Positions 54,434-63,393 of a DNA stretch of 64,000 nucleotides are shown one piece after another. Below the pieces are notes generated by a model. The model had not been told where the DNA came from and made no database searches. It saw nothing but the letters and a program-made list of their open reading frames with translations. This DNA comes from Escherichia coli. Lineage in GTDB: Bacteria > Pseudomonadota > Gammaproteobacteria > Enterobacterales > Enterobacteriaceae. The stretch is taken from the NCBI RefSeq assembly GCF_044324875.1, contig NZ_CP172185.1; one strand, written 5' to 3'. A program made the position numbers and the translations under genes. The number at the start of each line of letters is the position of its first letter. Position 1 is the first letter of the stretch.

Positions 54434-54550
54434 TCACTCTGGCGCGCATACCCAAGTGCGCGCCATCTCACGCTTTATCGTTTCGCCCCTCGTATCTGTT
54501 ACATCCTGGCGTTACCCTTGTCGCAAAGAAGCACACAACAAGGAGCAACA

Positions 54551-55486
54551 ATGGCACTGCCAATTCTGTTAGATTGCGACCCAGGTCATGATGACGCTAT
54601 CGCAATAGTTCTCGCCCTCGCCTCACCAGAGCTTGATGTCAAAGCAATTACGTCTTCCGCCGGAAACCAGACACCAGAAAAAACCTTACGCAATGTTCTG
54701 CGTATGCTGACCTTGCTTAATCGCACCGATATTCCGGTGGCAGGCGGCGCGGTAAAACCGTTAATGCGTGAGTTGATTATCGCGGACAATGTGCACGGCG
54801 AAAGCGGTCTCGACGGCCCGGCATTACCGGAACCGACGTTCGCACCGCAAAACTGTACGGCGGTGGAGCTGATGGCGAAAACGCTGCGTGAAAGTGCGAA
54901 ACCTGTCACGATTGTTTCTACCGGGCCGCAAACTAACGTTGCCTTGCTGCTCAATAGCCATCCGGAACTGCATAGCAAAATTGCTCGTATCGTGATTATG
55001 GGCGGCGCAATGGGGCTTGGTAACTGGACGCCTGCGGCTGAATTTAATATTTACGTTGACCCGGAAGCGGCAGAAATTGTTTTCCAGTCAGGGATCCCGG
55101 TGGTGATGGCCGGTCTGGATGTTACTCATAAAGCGCAAATCCACGTTGAAGACACCGAGCGTTTCCGCGCGATTGGCAACCCTGTTTCAACCATTGTTGC
55201 CGAACTGCTGGATTTCTTCCTCGAATATCATAAAGACGAAAAATGGGGCTTTGTCGGCGCACCGCTGCATGACCCATGCACCATCGCCTGGCTGTTAAAA
55301 CCGGAGTTGTTTACCACTGTTGAGCGCTGGGTTGGCGTGGAAACACAAGGGAAATATACCCAGGGTATGACGGTTGTTGATTATTATTATCTGACCGGCA
55401 ATAAACCGAATGCCACTGTAATGGTCGATGTTGATCGTCAGGGCGTTGTTGATTTACTGGCTGATTGTCTGAAATTTTACGCTTAA
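54551..55486 (+). CDS. rihA: Pyrimidine-specific ribonucleoside hydrolase
   Basis: ORF 54518..55486; start [16 protein letters not shown] (IU-nucleoside hydrolase DxDxxxDD motif) gives 311 aa. Confidence 0.9.
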
Positions 55487-55569
55487 CACACGTCATTGAT
55501 TAAGATCACCACGCGTTACCCGGGTGGTCTTAATCTGTTTATCTCTTTTTCTTTCAAGATATAAATGCA

Positions 55570-57240
55570 ATGGATAATGCAGAACTCGCCATTGGTATCG
55601 ATCTCGGTACTACCAATAGTTTAATTGCCGTCTGGAAAGACGGTGCCGCGCAATTAATTCCAAATAAGTTCGGTGAATATTTAACACCATCCATAATTAG
55701 CATGGATGAAAATAATCATATTTTAGTCGGAAAACCCGCTGTATCACGGCGCACTTCGCATCCGGATAAAACGGCAGCGTTATTTAAACGTGCAATGGGC
55801 AGTAATACCAACTGGCGGTTAGGCAGCGACACATTTAACGCGCCAGAACTGTCCTCTTTGGTATTACGCTCATTAAAAGAAGATGCCGAAGAATTTCTGC
55901 AACGTCCGATTAAAGATGTGGTGATCTCCGTTCCGGCTTATTTCAGCGATGAACAACGCAAGCATACCCGTTTAGCAGCGGAGTTAGCCGGGTTAAATGC
56001 GGTACGCTTAATTAATGAACCCACAGCAGCTGCGATGGCATATGGCCTGCATACGCAACAAAATACCCGCTCGCTGGTTTTTGATCTCGGTGGCGGCACG
56101 TTTGACGTCACGGTGCTCGAATACGCCACGCCGGTGATTGAAGTTCACGCCTCCGCTGGCGACAACTTTCTTGGCGGCGAAGATTTTACTCATATGCTGG
56201 TGGATGAAGTTTTAAAACGCGCCGCAGTGGCTAAAAACATGCTCAACGAAAGTGAGCTGGCAGCCCTGTACACCAGCGTGGAAGCGGCAAAATGCGGCAA
56301 TCAATTACCGCTGCAAATTAGCTGGCAGTATCAGGAAGAAACGCGTGAGTGCGAATTTTACGAGAACGAACTGGAAGATTTGTGGTTGCCGCTGCTCAAT
56401 CGCTTGCGAGTGCCGATTGAACAGGCGTTGCGCGATGCACGTCTGAAGCCCAGTCAAATCGACAGTCTGGTGCTGGTTGGCGGCGCATCACAAATGCCGC
56501 TGGTGCAGCGAATCGCCGTACGTCTGTTTGGCAAATTACCATATCAAAGTTACGACCCGAGCACCATTGTCGCGCTGGGCGCAGCAATCCAGGCCGCCTG
56601 CCGCTTACGCAGTGAAGATATTGAAGAGGTGATCCTCACTGATATTTGCCCTTACTCGTTGGGTGTTGAAGTTAACCGCCAGGGCGTTTCCGGCATTTTC
56701 TCGCCGATAATTGAACGAAACACCACTGTACCGGTGTCGCGTGTAGAAACTTACTCGACCATGCACCCGGAACAGGATTCAATTACGGTTAACGTCTATC
56801 AAGGAGAAAATCACAAAGTTAAAAATAACATTCTGGTGGAATCCTTTGATGTGCCGTTGAAGAAAACCGGGGCTTATCAGTCGATTGATATTCGCTTTAG
56901 TTATGATATCAACGGGTTGCTTGAAGTTGACGTGCTTCTGGAAGACGGCAGCGTTAAGTCCAGAGTCATTAATCACAGTCCTGTAACATTGAGCGCACAG
57001 CAGATTGAAGAGAGTCGGACGCGGTTATCCGCATTGAAAATTTATCCGCGCGATATGCTCATCAACCGTACCTTTAAAGCCAAACTGGAAGAGTTGTGGG
57101 CGCGGGCGCTGGGTGACGAGCGAGAAGAGATCGGCCGGGTGATCACCGATTTTGATGCGGCGTTGCAGTCAAACGATATGGCCCGCGTCGATGAAGTTCG
57201 GCGACGGGCGAGCGATTATTTGGCTATTGAGATCCCTTAA
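55570..57240 (+). CDS. hscC: Hsp70-family chaperone HscC
   Basis: 556 aa; Hsp70 signatures IDLGTTNS and DLGGGTFD. Confidence 0.9.
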   Translation: MDNAELAIGIDLGTTNSLIAVWKDGAAQLIPNKFGEYLTPSIISMDENNHILVGKPAVSRRTSHPDKTAALFKRAMGSNTNWRLGSDTFNAPELSSLVLRSLKEDAEEFLQRPIKDVVISVPAYFSDEQRKHTRLAAELAGLNAVRLINEPTAAAMAYGLHTQQNTRSLVFDLGGGTFDVTVLEYATPVIEVHASAGDNFLGGEDFTHMLVDEVLKRAAVAKNMLNESELAALYTSVEAAKCGNQLPLQISWQYQEETRECEFYENELEDLWLPLLNRLRVPIEQALRDARLKPSQIDSLVLVGGASQMPLVQRIAVRLFGKLPYQSYDPSTIVALGAAIQAACRLRSEDIEEVILTDICPYSLGVEVNRQGVSGIFSPIIERNTTVPVSRVETYSTMHPEQDSITVNVYQGENHKVKNNILVESFDVPLKKTGAYQSIDIRFSYDINGLLEVDVLLEDGSVKSRVINHSPVTLSAQQIEESRTRLSALKIYPRDMLINRTFKAKLEELWARALGDEREEIGRVITDFDAALQSNDMARVDEVRRRASDYLAIEIP

Positions 57241-57244
57241 ACAC

Positions 57245-57285
57245 GGCTGCCGGATGCGGCATAAACGCTGCATCCGGCATCGGCG
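57245..57285. repeat. REP-like palindrome between convergent hscC and djlC
   Basis: ctgccggatgcggcataaacgctgcatccggcatcgg. Confidence 0.6.
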
Positions 57286-57299
57286 CAAAAAACACTTCC

Positions 57300-58751
57300 T
57301 CAGCTAAACAACATCGCGATTTTTCCGAGAGCATAACCTATCACCAGCACCGTTAAGCTGATTTTGATAATGCTGGTAATGCTCTGTGGTTTTTCATCCT
57401 CATCATTTTTTTCTTCGTGGTTTTCAGGTGTTGGCTCATCGACATCTTCATCCTCCGGCTCGAGTTTCACTTTCGTCAACAGCATCCGGGTGATAATGGC
57501 CTCTAATGGATGAGCATCTCCACCTTCCAGCCTTGTATTAAGACGGGCCAGCATCTCTTGTTTCGGGAACGCTTCCAGCACAACCTGTTCCGCTACCCGA
57601 TACAAATCCAGTAACGGTGAATCTTGTTCTGTCTCGCTACCGACTCTCGATTTCCACCACGCCCATGCTTTGCGCTTGAAGAATAACGACTCAATAAACG
57701 ATTGACCTAACGGCGATAATTTTCCGCTATGTAAAATTTCCGCCCATAACAGCCGCGTCCGGGCGCTCTCACCAGGAACATATTTCAACGGTTGACCTTG
57801 CGCATCAACCATGCTCTGCGCTTCGATAACCATCACTAACAGCGCGAAATAATCCGGGCAATGACGCTTGCTCCACTGCAACAACAAATTATCGGCTTGT
57901 GTAGATGGGTAACTCTCCCGGTATGCGCAGAGATCGGCAAGCAGGCTTTCCCCCTCGCCACAGTACAACCGTTGCGCACACTGGTAATAACGGGCATCTT
58001 CGCTTTCTGGTTCTTCTGCTTGCCACTGTTGGGCAACAGGAATGAGTTCCGCCATACCTCTTTTCACCGAGCTGTACCAGCGCAACAGTTTGCGATGTAA
58101 CTTGACATCATCAGGAATGAACCACGGACCTTCCATTGCCATAAACGCAGTGACATAGTCGGGATGGTAACGGCAACAGCGTTCCAGCGCGAAGTAATAC
58201 TCAACAGTCTGGTTCTGCAACGCGACGGGATATTCCAGAAGGCTAAGGAAATCGAAACAATCACCAGCCTGAATGGCCTCAAGAAAAGCCTCCCTTTCTT
58301 CCTCATCCATTCCTTCGCTGTCATTAAACGAATGCCAGTTCAAACGCTCTGCCAGCAAAGAAGCACAATTTAATGAAAGATATCGCGCTTCTATAGCGAT
58401 TGCACACAGCGGCCAGCGTAATTGATCGACATCCTCCATGTTCCAGGTATTTAATTGCTGAATAAATTTCTGCCAGGCGGAGGGCTGAAAACGATCACTT
58501 TCTGAATCCAGTAATGTCCTGAATGCACGTAGTATTTCATGTTCAGCGGCGGCATCTTTTTCTTCATCATCTGCTTCCTCGACAGGATTTACCGCCAGTC
58601 GCAGCGCCTCTTCATAGGCCTGGCGTAATGCTTTAAACCCCTGCGGATCGGTTTCGGGATGACACAACGGTAAGCGAGCAAGATAAGCCTGGCGGATAAT
58701 GTCTATTTGCGTCGTGCTTTCAATTTCGAGGATTTGCCAACATGTTTTCAT
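57300..58751 (-). CDS. djlC: J-domain co-chaperone of HscC (membrane-anchored at the C-terminus)
   Basis: 483 aa; N-terminal J-like domain with an HPE tripeptide; C-terminal hydrophobic segment; start overlaps the ybeU stop. Confidence 0.8.
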
Positions 58752-59455
58752 AGGTCGCTCACATCCTTAAGCGTTACCGGGCATTCAGGCTGGGCAGTCA
58801 ATGGCTGCCAGGGAAGCGTGGCATAGAAACGATCGCTTCCCGCTGCCAGCTCTTCGAACATCCGACTCCCGGCGCTATCGTATTTGTACAGGGTTAGCGC
58901 CTCGCGTAACGAAGCGTTGTCTTCGCATTGAGAAGATTGCCAGTAGAGACGCCCTAGTGAATAGGCAGAAAAATAGTGCATCCAGCTGTGATAGTAATGG
59001 TGTGCTCGGACATAGATGCGCGATTGCAGCCATAAACTCTCTTCTTCCGTCAGCCACTTGTTGAGCACACCGACCCGTGACAGAAACCCCATTCGAACAT
59101 AATCCCAGGCTTTGATTCCCCCTTCTCCACAGCACATAGCGGTTTGGGCAACGAATTGGGTATAAATCAACCCTCTCTCCGAGCCACCAGCAATTAATGC
59201 TTTCCACTCTTCAGGGGAAGAGCGATGCCATGTCAGATATAAGCCAGCTAAATCATTGGCATGACCATCATCGGTCATCTGATAAATAGTCTGAATTAAA
59301 TCATCACGATTATTTATTCCCCAGGATGATGAGAGATCGAATTCTTTTATCCCGGTATACATTTTTGGCGAGTCATGCGCGGGCTTGCAACCCTGATTAA
59401 GTATTTCCATGGGCGTAGAAAGCGCAAAAAGAAGATATTGTTCTTCCTTATTCAT
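58748..59455 (-). CDS. ybeU: DUF1266-family protein
   Basis: 235 aa; translationally coupled to djlC; paralogous to the ybeR product. Confidence 0.8.
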
Positions 59456-59556
59456 TTGTTAATAATCCCTTAAGTGCATTAACTGACTACTTTTTTATTA
59501 TTGATGAGTATAAACTTGACGCTTTCAAAATAAAAAGAAAATCGAAGTATTCACAC

Positions 59557-60111
59557 ATGAATAAAAAATTAATGTATATATTCGCAATATTTATAGTTGC
59601 AGCAATAACCTGTATTAGTCAACCCAAGAAAACGACGTTGCGTGATAAAGCCATGGTGAATTATGCCTTTGATTATTTAAGCTCACCGGGCAGTCTTCCA
59701 TTCACCACGGCAGCCACGGAGCTTTCCGCGATTCATGGTCACTCAACGTCGCAATATCGCCTTGGAGAATTTTATCTTCATGGTAGCGACGGTAAACCAC
59801 TGGATTATACACAGGCGAGATACTGGTATGAGCAATCAGCGGAACAGGAAAATCCACGCGCGCAAAGTAAACTGGGGTGGATCTACCTCAAAGGTCTGGG
59901 GGTCAAACCCGATACCCGTAAAGCAATTCTCTGGTATAAGGAAGCAGCTGAACAAGGGTATGCTCATGCTCAATATACTTTAGGTTTGATCTACAGAAAC
60001 GGCTCAGGTATTAATGTTAACCATTATGAATCTCAAAAATGGTTAAAACTGGCCGCCAAACAACATTACAAAAATGCGGAAAGATTACTTGCCGGGCTTC
60101 CCGCACATTAA
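59557..60111 (+). CDS. ybeT: Sel1-repeat (TPR-like) protein with signal peptide
   Basis: 184 aa; Sel1 repeats (AQ..LG..Y..G.GV..D...A..WY..AA.QG). Confidence 0.8.
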
Positions 60112-60120
60112 CGTCGACTG

Positions 60121-61548
60121 TCACCCGAACAGATGGAGTATTTTCCCTATCAAACCAGCAAAGATAAAAATATAGAAAATAATTTTGATGACGCCCAGAC
60201 AGCCCGGCCCACCATCGTCAACGGGCATTGGCTGCGGTTGCGGCTCCGGTTCAACAGTTTGCTTCTCGGTAAAATTCGCCGCCTGAATTAATAATCGACG
60301 AATAATTAATGCTTCCAGTGGACAACGATCTTCTGCATCAAGGCGGCTCACAATCGGCATTAATGATTCTTCTGTCGGTTGGCTGGCCTGCACTAATTGT
60401 TTGGCAACTAGATATAATGGCCATAAGGGATGTTCTGTATCACGCGTGAGTGAGATCCGCGGCTTACGTCCTTTGTGCAAAACCATCTCGACCAGAGAAC
60501 GCCCCAGCGCAGAGAGTTTTTCATCACTGAGTATTTCGTATAAATGAAAACGCGTACGAGCGCTGTCACCAGGGACATAAAGTAGCGGTTTTCCCTGATC
60601 GTTAACCAGATCACGCGCTTCAATCATCATCACCACTAATGGGTAATAATCGACCCGATGCTGACGGCACCATTGCAACATTAAAGCATCCGCCTGGGTG
60701 GAGGGATACTCGCGCCAGTAGTCACAAAGTTCTGCCAGCAGGCTTTCGCCTTCTCCACAATAGACGCGTTGCGCGTATTCATAATAACGCGCATCTTCAT
60801 TATCAGGTTCAGCTTCCCGCCACGACCGGGCGTAATCCAGAAGTTCGGGGATTCCCAGGCGGCTTGCGCTATACCAGCGGAGTAAATTTCTGTGCAGTTT
60901 TGCATCATCGGGGATAATCACTGCGCGATGTTGCGCTAAATACAATGTCAGCCATTCTGGATGCGATGACCAAATCCGAGCGAACATTTGGTAAAAATCG
61001 ATGGTGTCATTTTGCACGGCAACGGGCAGATGCAGAATGGTCTGGAAGTTAAAAACATTCCCCTTCGCAATGGCATATAAAAAGGATTCCAGTTCTTCTT
61101 CGTCTATTTCCCCGGTGTTTTCCTCCTGCAACCACCGCAGTCTTTCTGCTAATAACACCACGCACTCGAAGGATAAATGGGCAGTGTTCATGGCGATTGT
61201 GCACAGCGACCAGCGTAATTCATCAATCTCTTCCATCGAGCAATAATTTAATTGCTGAATGAATCGCTGCCAGGCGGAAGGCAGAAAACGTTCGCTATCA
61301 GAGGCGAGTAACGCACGAAAGGCGAGCAGAATTTCATGTTCTGCAACTTCATGTTCTTCTGGTTGCCAAACAGATTTAGCAGGGGACTGCGCAATCCGTA
61401 GCGCATCCTCATACGCCTGACGAAGTTGTTTAAAACCCTGCGGATCTGTTTCTGGATGAAAGGACGGTAACAAGGCCAGATAAGCGCGACGGATAATATC
61501 GACGTCAGTCGTTTGAGGTATATCGAGGATCTGCCAGCAAGTTTTCAT
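60121..61548 (-). CDS. djlB: J-domain protein, paralog of DjlC
   Basis: 475 aa; same architecture as djlC (N-terminal J-like domain with HPE, C-terminal hydrophobic tail). Confidence 0.8.
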
Positions 61549-62252
61549 AGGTCGCTCATATCCTTAAGCGTTTCCGGGCATGTGGGGTAGTCAACCAGTG
61601 GTTGCCAGGGTAAGGTCGCGTAATATGCATCGTCACTGGCAAATAATTGATAAAACATATCATTGCCGGAATCGTCGTATTCTTTACGCGCTAAGAATTC
61701 ACGTAATAACTGAAGATTATCATCTTCGGGAGACTGCCAATATTGCCGACCAAAGGTATAACCGGCAAAGTATTGCTGCCAGTTACTATAATAACGTAGC
61801 GCCCGTAGATGAATGCGCGACTGGATCCATAGACTTTCTTCTTCGCTTAACCAGTTATTAAGTACGCCCATTCGGCTTAAAAAACCCATCCGGACATAAT
61901 CCCAGGCTTTAATTCCTCCCTCACCACAGCATTCGGCGGTGCTGGCGACAAATTGCGCATAAGCCTGACCTTGCTCATTTAATTCAGCAAGATAGTCACG
62001 CCATTCACATGGCGAATAACGAAACCAGCAGTGATAAAACCCTGCCAACCGCGCGGCATGACCGTTATCAATCATTCGGTGAATTGTGCGCAGCAGGTCA
62101 TCACGGTCATCAATTCCCCAGGAGGAAGAAAGGTCAAAAAAGCGTGTACCTAAATACATTTTGGGAGATGAATGCGAAGGTAAACAGCATTCATTGCGTA
62201 TTTCCATCGGAGTGGAAAGTGCAAACAATATTTTTTGCGACTCCATGTCCAT
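61545..62252 (-). CDS. ybeR: DUF1266-family protein, paralog of YbeU
   Basis: ORF 61545..62279; probable start at the internal [13 protein letters not shown]; translationally coupled to djlB. Confidence 0.75.
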
Positions 62253-62409
62253 ATAATTTATCCTTAAATATTCATTCAATGAATATTAACCACGTTGCGA
62301 GGCTCATTTATTTATACTTTTCTGACGCAACATAATACGCATAAAATAAGGCTTACGCAAAAATGGAACACATAAAAATATAATATGTTTTATATGCAAC
62401 CATAAGGAA

Positions 62410-63393
62410 ATGATAATGATTTTTACGTCAAGTTGCTGCGATAATTTATCAATAGATGAGATTATCGAACGTGCTGAAAAAGGCGATTGCGAGGCTCAAT
62501 ATATTATTGGGTTTTATTATAATCGCGATAGCGCAATTGACTCTCCGGACGACGAAAAAGCCTTCTACTGGCTGAAGCTGGCCGCTGAGCAAGGCCATTG
62601 TGAAGCACAATATTCCTTAGGGCGGAAATACTCCGAGGATAAAAGCCGTCATAAAGATAATGAGCAAGCCATCTTTTGGCTGAAAAAAGCTGCCCTACAA
62701 GGCCATACTTTCGCTTCCAACGCCCTTGGCTGGATACTGGATCGTGGAGAAGACCCCAACTATAAAGAAGCGGTTGCCTGGTATCAGATAGCCGCGGAGA
62801 GCGGAATGTCTTATGCGCAAAATAATCTTGGATGGATGTACAGAAATGGCAACGGAGTCGCTCAAGACTATGCGCTGGCATTTTTCTGGTACAAACAAGC
62901 TGCATTACAAGGCCATAGTTACGCACAAGACAATCTGGCCGATCTTTATGAAGACGGAAAAGGCGTTGCTCAAAACAAGACACTCGCCGCATTCTGGTAT
63001 TTGAAAAGCGCACAGCAGGGTAATCGGCATGCCCAGTTTCAAATTGCATGGGATTATAACGCTGGCGAAGGGGTGGACCAGGACTATAAGCAAGCCATGT
63101 ACTGGTATCTGAAGGCTGCCGCTCAGGAAAGCGTCGGCGCTTACGTCAACATCGGTTATATGTATAAACATGGACAAGGCGTTGAGAAAGATTATCAGGC
63201 CGCCTTTGAATGGTTTATGAAAGCCGCTGAATGCAATGACGCCACTGCCTGGTATAACCTGGCCATTATGTATCACTACGGAGAAGGAAGACCTGTCGAT
63301 CTCCGACAGGCTCTCGACCTGTATCGTAAAGTTCAGGCATCCGGTACCAGGGATGTCAGTCAAGAAATCCGTGAGATTGAAGATTTACTGTAA
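62410..63393 (+). CDS. ybeQ: Sel1-repeat protein
   Basis: 327 aa; multiple Sel1 repeats. Confidence 0.8.
   Translation: MIMIFTSSCCDNLSIDEIIERAEKGDCEAQYIIGFYYNRDSAIDSPDDEKAFYWLKLAAEQGHCEAQYSLGRKYSEDKSRHKDNEQAIFWLKKAALQGHTFASNALGWILDRGEDPNYKEAVAWYQIAAESGMSYAQNNLGWMYRNGNGVAQDYALAFFWYKQAALQGHSYAQDNLADLYEDGKGVAQNKTLAAFWYLKSAQQGNRHAQFQIAWDYNAGEGVDQDYKQAMYWYLKAAAQESVGAYVNIGYMYKHGQGVEKDYQAAFEWFMKAAECNDATAWYNLAIMYHYGEGRPVDLRQALDLYRKVQASGTRDVSQEIREIEDLL

What the first reader, a model, noticed from the sequence alone, without database searches (positions are those of the whole stretch)
58650..58751. Non-canonical HPE (not HPD) tripeptide in both DjlC and DjlB J-domains
Canonical J-domains need an His-Pro-Asp motif to stimulate Hsp70 ATPase. 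Both paralogs here read ...[10 protein letters not shown]... and ...[10 protein letters not shown]... (djlB equivalent at about 61450-61548). The conserved Asp-to-Glu substitution in both copies suggests specialisation for HscC rather than DnaK.
Basis: seen in the sequence. Interest (0 to 1): 0.35.

Follow-up and report, generated by a model that had tools for sequence, protein, structure and literature searches.

The report
HPE motif in HscC co-chaperones
The two E. coli co-chaperones DjlC and DjlB do carry His-Pro-Glu where nearly all J-domains have His-Pro-Asp, but this is a documented, ancient hallmark of the J-proteins that work with the specialised Hsp70 HscC, so the finding is correct and not new.

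Summary
The window is E. coli chromosome. djlC (57300-58751, -) and djlB (60121-61548, -) both read H31-P32-E33, with codons at 58653-58661 and 61450-61458.

Sequence alignment, a family profile search against solved J-domains and an AlphaFold2 model all place HPE on DnaJ's H33-P34-D35, in the helix II-III loop. No canonical J-domain HPD lies elsewhere.

The Glu is not a quirk of these two paralogs. It is present in 113 of 113 enterobacterial homologs and in every J-domain recovered among the top 150 remote relatives. The family signature is [H/N/L]-P-E-x-D-P-x-G-F.

Ten of 11 remote relatives that I looked up sit beside an HscC-type Hsp70.

The HPE motif of DjlB and DjlC, and their exclusive pairing with HscC, are already in the literature (Kluck 2002 as cited; PMC10410713; PMC13254874; PMC8215388).

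HscC keeps the DnaK residues that contact Asp35 (R167, Q378, L391, P419). The larger interface changes are elsewhere: the D211 loop is deleted, D477 becomes Ser/Thr, and helix II of the J-domain has lost basic residues. HPE J-domains are also reported in eukaryotes, which have no HscC.

Verdict: already known, low interest.

The parts
57300..58751 (-). djlC (ybeV) CDS, 483 aa: N-terminal J-domain, DjlB/C-type middle domain, C-terminal tail anchor
   Evidence: ORF. Annotated co-chaperone DjlC in 100%-identical E. coli genomes. Close homologs carry the precomputed Pfam family PF27158 DjlB_C_2nd.
58590..58751 (-). DjlC J-domain core (residues 1-54: helix I 4-8, helix II 16-29, loop 30-35, helix III 36-54)
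   Evidence: Pfam DnaJ PF00226 matches residues 4-47 with E=0.001 and 19.6 bits, below the 27.8 cut-off. The family profile hits solved J-domains at E=9e-8 to 1e-6. AF2 model has pLDDT above 90 over roughly residues 11-50. Foldseek top hits are almost all J-domains.
58653..58661 (-). DjlC H31-P32-E33 codons (CAT CCC GAA), the HPD-equivalent tripeptide
   Evidence: Aligns to DnaJ H33-P34-D35. Lies in the predicted helix II-III loop.
57306..57362 (-). DjlC C-terminal hydrophobic tail anchor (residues 464-482, [19 protein letters not shown])
   Evidence: Highest 19-residue Kyte-Doolittle window, 1.99. Membrane insertion of DjlC is reported by Peschke 2018 as cited in PMC8215388.
60121..61548 (-). 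djlB (ybeS) CDS, 475 aa, paralog of djlC (50% identity overall)
61387..61548 (-). DjlB J-domain core (residues 1-54)
   Evidence: Pfam DnaJ matches residues 4-47 with E=3.6e-4 and 21.0 bits, below the 27.8 cut-off. Alignments.
61450..61458 (-). DjlB H31-P32-E33 codons (CAT CCA GAA)
60124..60201 (-). DjlB C-terminal hydrophobic tail (residues 450-475)
   Evidence: Highest 19-residue Kyte-Doolittle window, 2.37, starting at residue 450.
55570..57240 (+). hscC, the specialised 556-aa Hsp70 that is the partner of the HPE J-domains
   Evidence: Pfam HSP70 E=2.6e-116. 32% identical to DnaK; lacks DnaK residues 208-211; D477 is replaced by S444. Annotated HscC.
56005..56007 (+). HscC R146 codon, equivalent to DnaK R167, the inferred contact of E33
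   Evidence: HscC-DnaK alignment. The D35-R167/Q378 contact comes from the 5NRO structure as described in PMC8215388. The contact in HscC is inferred, not shown.
56590..56592 (+). HscC Q341 codon, equivalent to DnaK Q378, the second inferred contact of E33
   Evidence: inferred as for R146.
58748..59455 (-). ybeU, DUF1266 protein; its stop codon overlaps the djlC start (ATGA)
   Evidence: Pfam DUF1266 E=4.4e-45. Coordinates. The same DUF1266-then-J-gene arrangement is seen in remote loci L001, L012 and L017.
61545..62279 (-). ybeR, DUF1266 protein; its stop codon overlaps the djlB start
   Evidence: Pfam DUF1266 E=2.7e-47.
59557..60111 (+). Sel1-repeat protein gene between ybeU and djlB
   Evidence: Pfam Sel1 E=1e-30.
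62410..63393 (+). Sel1-repeat protein gene upstream of ybeR
   Evidence: Pfam Sel1 E=1.1e-61.

Best explanation
H31-P32-E33 of DjlC and DjlB is the genuine, functional counterpart of the HPD loop. It belongs to an old, distinct subclass of J-domains (signature [H/N]PE-x-DP-x-GF, with a helix II-III loop about 6 residues shorter than in DnaJ) that is dedicated to HscC-type Hsp70s.

Proposed mechanism. The tail-anchored DjlC or DjlB docks its helix II/III hairpin onto ATP-bound HscC at the junction of nucleotide-binding domain, linker and SBD-beta. By analogy with DnaJ-DnaK, H31 would bond the linker backbone at L356, P32 would pack on P388, and the E33 carboxylate would engage R146 and Q341. 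This would trigger ATP hydrolysis and client capture at the inner membrane.

What is shown. The motif is there, it is in the helix II-III loop, it is invariant in the family, and it is linked to HscC-type genes. Published biochemistry shows that DjlC stimulates the HscC ATPase.

What is inferred. The atomic contacts of E33 are inferred. I also infer that insulation from DnaK comes from several co-evolved changes together: the Glu with its shortened loop, a less basic helix II, loss of the acidic D211 loop in HscC, and loss of D477. On this view the Asp-to-Glu change alone is not the switch.
For: HPE aligns on DnaJ H33-P34-D35 in MAFFT against a DnaJ sequence verified identical to 5nro_B.

A 45-sequence family profile hits solved J-domains at E=9e-8 to 1e-6, including E. 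coli DnaJ, with PE aligned on PD.

The AF2 model (pLDDT 82.7) has helices at 16-29 and 36-54 with HPE in the loop between them. Foldseek top hits are nearly all J-domains; 5nro_B aligns at rmsd 2.7 A over 55 columns.

E33, P32, P36 and G38 are invariant in the 45 diverse sequences. 113 of 113 close homologs and 107 of the top 150 remote representatives read HPE, and none has a J-domain HPD.

Ten of 11 remote family members have a 560-566 aa Hsp70 nearby. These Hsp70s are 40-60% identical to HscC and 34-37% to DnaK, and all share the 208-211 deletion, D477 to S/T and L392 to T.

All four contact residues are conserved in E. coli HscC (R146, Q341, L356, P388); in the 10 remote HscC-type neighbours R167 and P419 are invariant, Q378 is kept in 8 of 10 and L391 in 7 of 10 (Met otherwise).

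Helix II has 2 basic residues against 6 in DnaJ.

Literature: only DjlC stimulates the HscC ATPase (PMC8215388). The DjlC J-domain cannot replace the DnaJ J-domain (PMC1906734). HPE is described as 'the only replacement tolerated' and is attributed to DjlB/DjlC with HscC (PMC13254874).
Against: No structure or mutant of the HscC-DjlC pair was available, so the E33-R146/Q341 contact is by analogy only.

The Pfam DnaJ scores of the two E. coli proteins are below the gathering threshold (19.6 and 21.0 against 27.8). Foldseek E-values are individually non-significant (0.37 or higher).

One of the 11 remote members had no Hsp70 on its contig, though that contig is only 6.9 kb.

Some relatives read NPE, LPE or SPE. 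This does not fit a strict transfer of the DnaJ H33 role.

DjlB itself has never been shown to stimulate HscC; this is only assumed (PMC8215388).
Confidence: 0.8

Rival explanations
1. The Asp-to-Glu substitution is itself the specificity switch. The extra methylene makes the J-domain fit HscC and misfit DnaK, so a single-residue swap would re-wire partner choice.
For: E is invariant in the HscC-linked family, whereas D is near-universal elsewhere (PMC10410713). The partner specificity is real. HscC replaces D481, which contacts R167/I168 in DnaK, with Asn in most members, which could reshape the Arg pocket.
Against: The direct partners of D35 (R167, Q378) and of H33 and P34 (L391, P419) are unchanged in E. 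coli HscC and largely so in the remote HscC-type neighbours. Many other interface positions differ at the same time: the D211 loop is deleted, D477 becomes S/T, helix II K26/R27 become L/A, and the loop is 6 residues shorter. J-domain identity to DnaJ is only about 23% (PMC8215388). About 1,200 eukaryotic HPE J-domains exist where there is no HscC.
Confidence: 0.15
2. HPE is a conservative, functionally neutral variant that was fixed once in the family ancestor and has simply been inherited. It says nothing about mechanism or specificity.
For: Asp and Glu are chemically similar. The motif is monophyletic within one family. A review calls HPE the one tolerated replacement (PMC13254874).
Against: GAA is one transversion from GAT or GAC, yet none of roughly 220 family members that retain the J-domain N-terminus, which diverge to 25-40% identity, has reverted to Asp. 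His31 does vary. This pattern indicates purifying selection for Glu specifically.
Confidence: 0.2
3. The N-terminal domain is a degenerate, inactive J-like domain (a 'type IV' J-protein, comparable to Pam16/Tim16 or DNAJB13) that cannot stimulate an Hsp70.
For: The canonical HPD is missing. The Pfam DnaJ score is below the gathering threshold. A single-sequence search against the PDB found nothing.
Against: DjlC is reported to stimulate the HscC ATPase (Kluck 2002, as cited in PMC8215388). P32, E33 and the DPxGF loop are under very strong conservation. Linkage to an Hsp70 gene is conserved.
Confidence: 0.03
4. The real J-domain loop lies elsewhere and carries a canonical HPD.
For: DjlC does contain an HPD tripeptide at residues 196-198 ([10 protein letters not shown]).
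Against: That site lies in the middle domain and has no DnaJ-profile match. It reads HPE in DjlB and HPxxF in the family consensus. The N-terminal region matches J-domains by profile and by fold, with HPE in the helix II-III loop.
Confidence: 0.01

Closest known systems
E. coli DjlC (YbeV) / DjlB (YbeS), the class C J-domain co-chaperones of HscC (Kluck et al. 2002 JBC, as cited; reviews PMC8215388 and PMC13254874)
   Same: These are the same genes. The locus is 100% identical to annotated E. coli chromosomes. The HPE motif, the HscC specificity and the tail-anchor topology are all described in these sources.
   Different: Nothing differs. This window carries a standard allele, with DjlC 95-100% identical to database clusters.
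Canonical J-domain of DnaJ/Hsp40 (Pfam PF00226; DnaJ-DnaK complex 5NRO)
   Same: Helix I-II-III architecture with a loop tripeptide at the same alignment position. Conserved counterparts of Y25 (Y23), F47 (F39) and the AYE of helix III. The Hsp70-side contact residues R167, Q378, L391 and P419 are conserved in HscC.
   Different: Glu replaces Asp. The loop between the tripeptide and the helix III Phe is 6 residues shorter and fixed as x-D-P-x-G. Helix II has lost K26/R27-type basic residues (2 K/R against 6). No QKRAAYD-type helix IV motif is present. The score is below Pfam's gathering cut-off. The partner Hsp70 lacks the D211 loop and D477.
HscB (Hsc20)-HscA, the other dedicated bacterial J-protein/Hsp70 pair
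   Same: A specialised Hsp70 with its own exclusive class C J-protein encoded nearby. It is insulated from DnaK/DnaJ and works without GrpE (PMC8215388).
   Different: HscB keeps a canonical HPD (recalled sequence aligned; this sequence was not verified here). It is soluble and serves Fe-S cluster transfer. DjlB and DjlC carry HPE and are membrane tail-anchored.
J-like or 'type IV' proteins with a degenerate HPD (for example DNAJB13, discussed in PMC13254874)
   Same: They deviate from the HPD consensus.
   Different: Those proteins are presumed unable to stimulate Hsp70. DjlC is reported to stimulate HscC, and its variant tripeptide is itself strictly conserved.

Membership tests
J-domain (DnaJ domain, PF00226) | Sequence match to the J-domain profile | tested here: inconclusive
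   Single sequences score 19.6 bits (DjlC) and 21.0 bits (DjlB), below Pfam's 27.8-bit cut-off, at E=1e-3 and 3.6e-4. A 45-member family profile hits solved J-domains at E=9e-8 to 1e-6, and some relatives pass the Pfam cut-off (P0129 30.1 bits, P0224 29.4 bits). Homology is therefore established at the family level.
J-domain (DnaJ domain, PF00226) | Helical fold with an antiparallel helix II / helix III hairpin joined by a loop | tested here: met
   The AF2 model has helices at 4-8, 16-29 and 36-54, with block-averaged pLDDT of about 90-92 over residues 11-50. Foldseek top 50 hits are almost all J-domains (2m6y rmsd 2.0 A over 53 columns; 5nro_B 2.7 A over 55), although E-values are 0.37 or higher.
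J-domain (DnaJ domain, PF00226) | Invariant His-Pro-Asp in the helix II-III loop | tested here: not met
   The loop reads His-Pro-Glu in both proteins and throughout the family. It is a variant of the defining motif. The literature still classes these proteins as J-domain proteins.
J-domain (DnaJ domain, PF00226) | Stimulates the ATPase of a partner Hsp70 | not testable with these tools
   Reported for DjlC with HscC (Kluck 2002, cited in PMC8215388). For DjlB this is only assumed.
DjlC-class J-proteins (HscC co-chaperones) | N-terminal J-domain with the HPE-x-DP-x-GF signature | tested here: met
DjlC-class J-proteins (HscC co-chaperones) | DjlB/C-type domain following the J-domain (Pfam PF27158 DjlB_C_2nd) | tested here: met
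   PF27158 is precomputed on the 95%-identical cluster representative P0001 and on most homologs. It is also found on remote relatives. The model is absent from the local Pfam copy used.
DjlC-class J-proteins (HscC co-chaperones) | Encoded next to an HscC-type Hsp70 (about 550-580 aa, with the DnaK 208-211 loop deleted) | tested here: met
   hscC ends 59 bp from the 3' end of djlC, and djlB lies 2.9 kb away. Ten of 11 remote relatives have an HscC-type Hsp70 adjacent or nearby.
DjlC-class J-proteins (HscC co-chaperones) | C-terminal tail-anchor transmembrane segment | tested here: met
   Hydrophobic C-terminal segments at DjlC 464-482 and from DjlB residue 450. Membrane insertion of DjlC is reported (Peschke 2018, cited in PMC8215388). 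Many remote relatives carry TPR arrays or DUF805 instead, so this feature defines only the enterobacterial subgroup.
Degenerate 'type IV' / J-like proteins | Broken HPD together with inability to stimulate Hsp70 | not testable with these tools
   Published stimulation of HscC by DjlC argues against membership. Strict conservation of P-E and the following loop also argues against decay.

The most novel reading that the evidence does not exclude
The [H/N]PE-x-DPxGF loop may mark a J-domain/Hsp70 docking geometry that differs mechanistically from DnaJ-DnaK. On this reading, Glu33 with the 6-residue-shorter, rigid loop acts as a true orthogonality element. E33D would abolish HscC stimulation, and D35E would not be tolerated by DnaK. 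The natural NPE, LPE and SPE variants found beside HscC-type Hsp70s would show that in this subclass the 'essential' His is dispensable while Glu is not. That would reverse the usual hierarchy within the HPD motif.
Probability: 0.15. Interest if true: 0.45.

Novelty: already known. Interest (0 to 1): 0.15.

Why it matters
HPD is the most conserved element of J-domains, and replacing its His or Asp normally abolishes Hsp70 stimulation. A natural, strictly conserved HPE variant that still works is therefore useful for understanding how J-domain/Hsp70 pairs stay insulated from each other in one cytoplasm.

This point has already been made in the literature for DjlB, DjlC and HscC. The comparative data here add three things. 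The Glu is more conserved than the His across the family. The linkage to HscC-type genes extends to very remote TPR-fused relatives. The direct Asp35 contacts in the Hsp70 are unchanged, while the electrostatic steering surfaces have changed on both partners. These are refinements, not a discovery.

Tried and rejected
1. phmmer of DjlC residues 1-100 against PDB sequences found nothing even at E of 10 or lower. A family profile was needed.

2. NCBIfam has no model matching DjlC or DjlB. HscC scores far below the DnaK and HscA equivalog cut-offs.

3. The primary paper, Kluck et al. 2002 (PMID 12183460), is not held. Its results are cited second-hand from PMC8215388, PMC1906734 and PMC13254874.

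4. I considered modelling an HscC-linker-J-domain fusion with AlphaFold2 to measure E33-R146 distances. I dropped this because the tool returns no coordinates and a paired alignment would be shallow.

5. I considered the internal HPD at DjlC 196-198 as an alternative 'true' motif. I rejected it for three reasons: it has no J-domain profile match, it reads HPE in DjlB, and it is HPxxF in the family consensus.

6. Foldseek E-values for the small helical domain are not individually significant. I used them only as supporting evidence.

7. I did not run a systematic co-occurrence scan of genome contigs, because of its cost and because 10 of 11 look-ups already agreed.

8. The CbpA, HscB and DjlA sequences were recalled from memory and not verified. 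Only DnaJ and DnaK were verified against the PDB.

Full report
**What is in the window.** The region 54.5-63.4 kb is the E. coli rihA-hscC-djlC-ybeU-(Sel1 gene)-djlB-ybeR-(Sel1 gene) locus. Window 55500-62400 is 100% identical to several E. coli chromosomes annotated 'molecular chaperone HscC', 'co-chaperone DjlC', 'J domain-containing protein' (djlB) and 'DUF1266 domain-containing protein' (ybeU, ybeR). At least 80% of it is present in 3,690 of 5,426 complete genomes.
- djlC is 57300-58751 (-), 483 aa.
- djlB is 60121-61548 (-), 475 aa.
- hscC is 55570-57240 (+), 556 aa.

**Check of the observation.** DjlC begins [39 protein letters not shown] and DjlB begins [39 protein letters not shown]. 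HPE is residues 31-33 in both. The codons are CAT CCC GAA at 58653-58661 (-) and CAT CCA GAA at 61450-61458 (-).

**Is HPE really the HPD position?** Four lines of evidence say yes.
- Pfam's DnaJ model matches residues 4-47 of both proteins, but below its gathering threshold (19.6 and 21.0 bits against 27.8).
- MAFFT against the E. coli DnaJ J-domain places H31-P32-E33 exactly on H33-P34-D35. Y23 falls on Y25, F39 on F47, and AYE on AYE of helix III. I verified the DnaJ sequence as identical to 5nro_B.
- A profile of 45 diverse family members hits solved J-domains at E=9e-8 to 1e-6, including DnaJ 1bqz/1xbl/5nro_B and CbpA. In these alignments 'hPEedPeG..Fk' aligns to 'HPDKNP..G..FK'.
- An AlphaFold2 model of DjlC 1-105 (mean pLDDT 82.7, above 90 over about residues 11-50) has helices at 4-8, 16-29 and 36-54, with HPE in the 30-35 loop. 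Foldseek's top 50 PDB matches are almost all J-domains (2m6y rmsd 2.0 A over 53 columns; 5nro_B 2.7 A over 55 columns). Their E-values are individually weak, at 0.37 or higher.

DjlC does contain an HPD at 196-198. That site is in the middle domain, has no J-domain match, reads HPE in DjlB, and is HPxxF in the family consensus.

**How conserved is the Glu?**
- Among 120 close homologs (Escherichia, Salmonella, Citrobacter, Enterobacter and others), all 113 that retain the N-terminus read HPE.
- A profile search of 1.84 billion representative proteins gave 6,263 hits at E of 1e-3 or lower and 853 at 1e-10 or lower. In the top 150, 107 read HPE and none has a J-domain HPD. Eight others read NPE, LPE or SPE in the same 'xPE-D-DPEGF' context, and one more (P0188, EHPPETDPEGF) keeps the PE-x-DPxGF signature with the His displaced by one residue.
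- In the 45-sequence alignment the invariant positions are L8, Y23, P32, E33, P36, G38 and R43. His31 is not invariant.
- GAA is one transversion from an Asp codon, so this pattern implies selection for Glu.
- Compared with DnaJ, the stretch between the tripeptide and the helix III Phe is 6 residues shorter (5 residues against 11). Helix II carries 2 rather than 6 Lys/Arg; K26 and R27 are replaced by L24 and A25.

**Link to HscC.** I looked up the genomic context of 11 remote family members. These are proteins of 656-1263 aa, many with TPR arrays or DUF805 fused C-terminally.
- Ten have a 560-566 aa Hsp70 next to them. Nine are within about 115 bp and one is 2.4 kb away. The eleventh sits on a 6.9 kb contig with no Hsp70.
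- All ten Hsp70s are HscC-type. They are 40-60% identical to E. coli HscC and 34-37% to DnaK.
- All ten share the 4-residue deletion of DnaK 208-211 (which removes D211), D477 to S/T, and L392 to T. Most also have D481 to N. R167 and P419 are invariant; Q378 is kept in 8 of the 10 neighbours and L391 in 7 (Met otherwise).
- In E. coli HscC the residues that contact H33, P34 and D35 in the DnaK-DnaJ complex are retained as L356, P388, R146 and Q341. The DnaK numbering was verified against PDB chains, and the contacts are as described in PMC8215388.

**What the literature already says.**
- PMC10410713 (PNAS 2023) counted 2,921 HPE J-domains, about 1% of the total, of which roughly 1,700 are prokaryotic and 1,200 eukaryotic. 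It names DjlB and DjlC as examples.
- PMC8215388 (2021) reports the following. [quoted passage not shown] DjlB is assumed to act likewise. Both are tail-anchored. HscCs lack the loop containing the J-contact D211. Deleting hscC, or djlB plus djlC, gives Cd2+ sensitivity.
- PMC1906734 relays that the DjlC J-domain cannot replace that of DnaJ.
- A 2026 preprint treats DnaJ, HscB and DjlC as the three J-domain classes matching DnaK, HscA and HscC.

**Mechanism.** The most likely mechanism is the standard J-domain one, transferred to a dedicated pair.
- DjlC and DjlB are membrane-anchored; the hydrophobic C-termini are at residues 464-482 in DjlC and from residue 450 in DjlB.
- They present the helix II/III hairpin to ATP-bound HscC, and the H-P-E loop engages the linker, P388, and R146/Q341 to trigger hydrolysis.
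- Shown here: the loop position, the conservation, the gene linkage, and conservation of the Hsp70-side contact residues.
- Taken from the literature: the ATPase stimulation.
- Inferred: the specific contacts of E33.
- On insulation from DnaK, both partners have lost the electrostatic steering pairs used by DnaJ and DnaK. These pairs are J-domain K26, R27 and K48 against DnaK D211 and D477. I therefore judge specificity to be multi-determinant, with Glu and the shortened DPxGF loop as one co-adapted element and not the sole switch.
- The eukaryotic HPE J-domains, which exist without any HscC, also argue against HPE being an HscC-specific code.

**Verdict.** The association with HscC is supported. 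The claim that the Asp-to-Glu change is what confers the specialisation is untested and, in my estimate, only about 15% likely as a single-residue switch. All the main points are already published, so novelty is 'already known' and interest is low (0.15).

Noticed in passing
Loci L005 2303-5788, L008 8001-11792, L014 5534-7609, L015 1829-4411 (proteins P0216, P0246, P0237, P0258; also P0240, P0245, P0247, P0251, P0264): Some remote family members have Asn, Leu or Ser instead of His in the tripeptide (NPEDDPEGF, LPEDDPEGF, SPEIDP). They are still encoded next to an HscC-type Hsp70. In this subclass Pro-Glu is invariant and His is not, which is the opposite of what DnaJ H33Q results would lead one to expect.
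   Followed up: partly
window 58748-58751 and 61545-61548; L001 2906-2909, L012 1882-1885, L017 4412-4415: The DUF1266 genes (ybeU, ybeR) end in an ATGA overlap with the start codon of the downstream J-protein gene. The same DUF1266-then-J-gene overlap recurs in distant loci. This suggests a translationally coupled three-part module of DUF1266, HPE J-protein and HscC. The role of DUF1266 is unknown.
   Followed up: partly
window 59557-60111 (+) and 62410-63393 (+); proteins P0206, P0208, P0216, P0224, P0246: In E. coli, separate Sel1-repeat (TPR-like) genes sit beside each ybeU/djlC-type pair. In remote relatives, long TPR arrays are fused to the C-terminus of the HPE J-protein itself. Others (P0129, P0133) carry a DUF805 membrane domain instead of the short tail anchor.
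   Followed up: partly
L017 3657-12463 (record AP023055.1): A distant genome repeats the E. coli arrangement of two tandem DUF1266 + DjlB-like gene pairs next to one HscC-type gene. Duplication of the co-chaperone pair is therefore not peculiar to E. coli.
   Followed up: no
window 58160-58168 (-), DjlC residues 196-198; DjlB residues 196-198: DjlC carries a stray HPD tripeptide ([10 protein letters not shown]) in its middle domain, and DjlB reads HPE (SSHPEWLT) at the same place. The family consensus is HPxxF. This is unrelated to the J-domain but could mislead a motif scan.
   Followed up: yes
L014 1461-7609: In one remote locus the HscC-type gene and the NPE J-protein gene are separated by a DNA methylase gene and two small ORFs. 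This looks like an insertion into an otherwise adjacent pair.
   Followed up: no
window 54518-55486 (+): The mechanical ORF for the nucleoside hydrolase gene upstream of hscC starts at a TTG, 11 codons before an in-frame Met ([23 protein letters not shown]). The ATG is the more plausible start.
   Followed up: no
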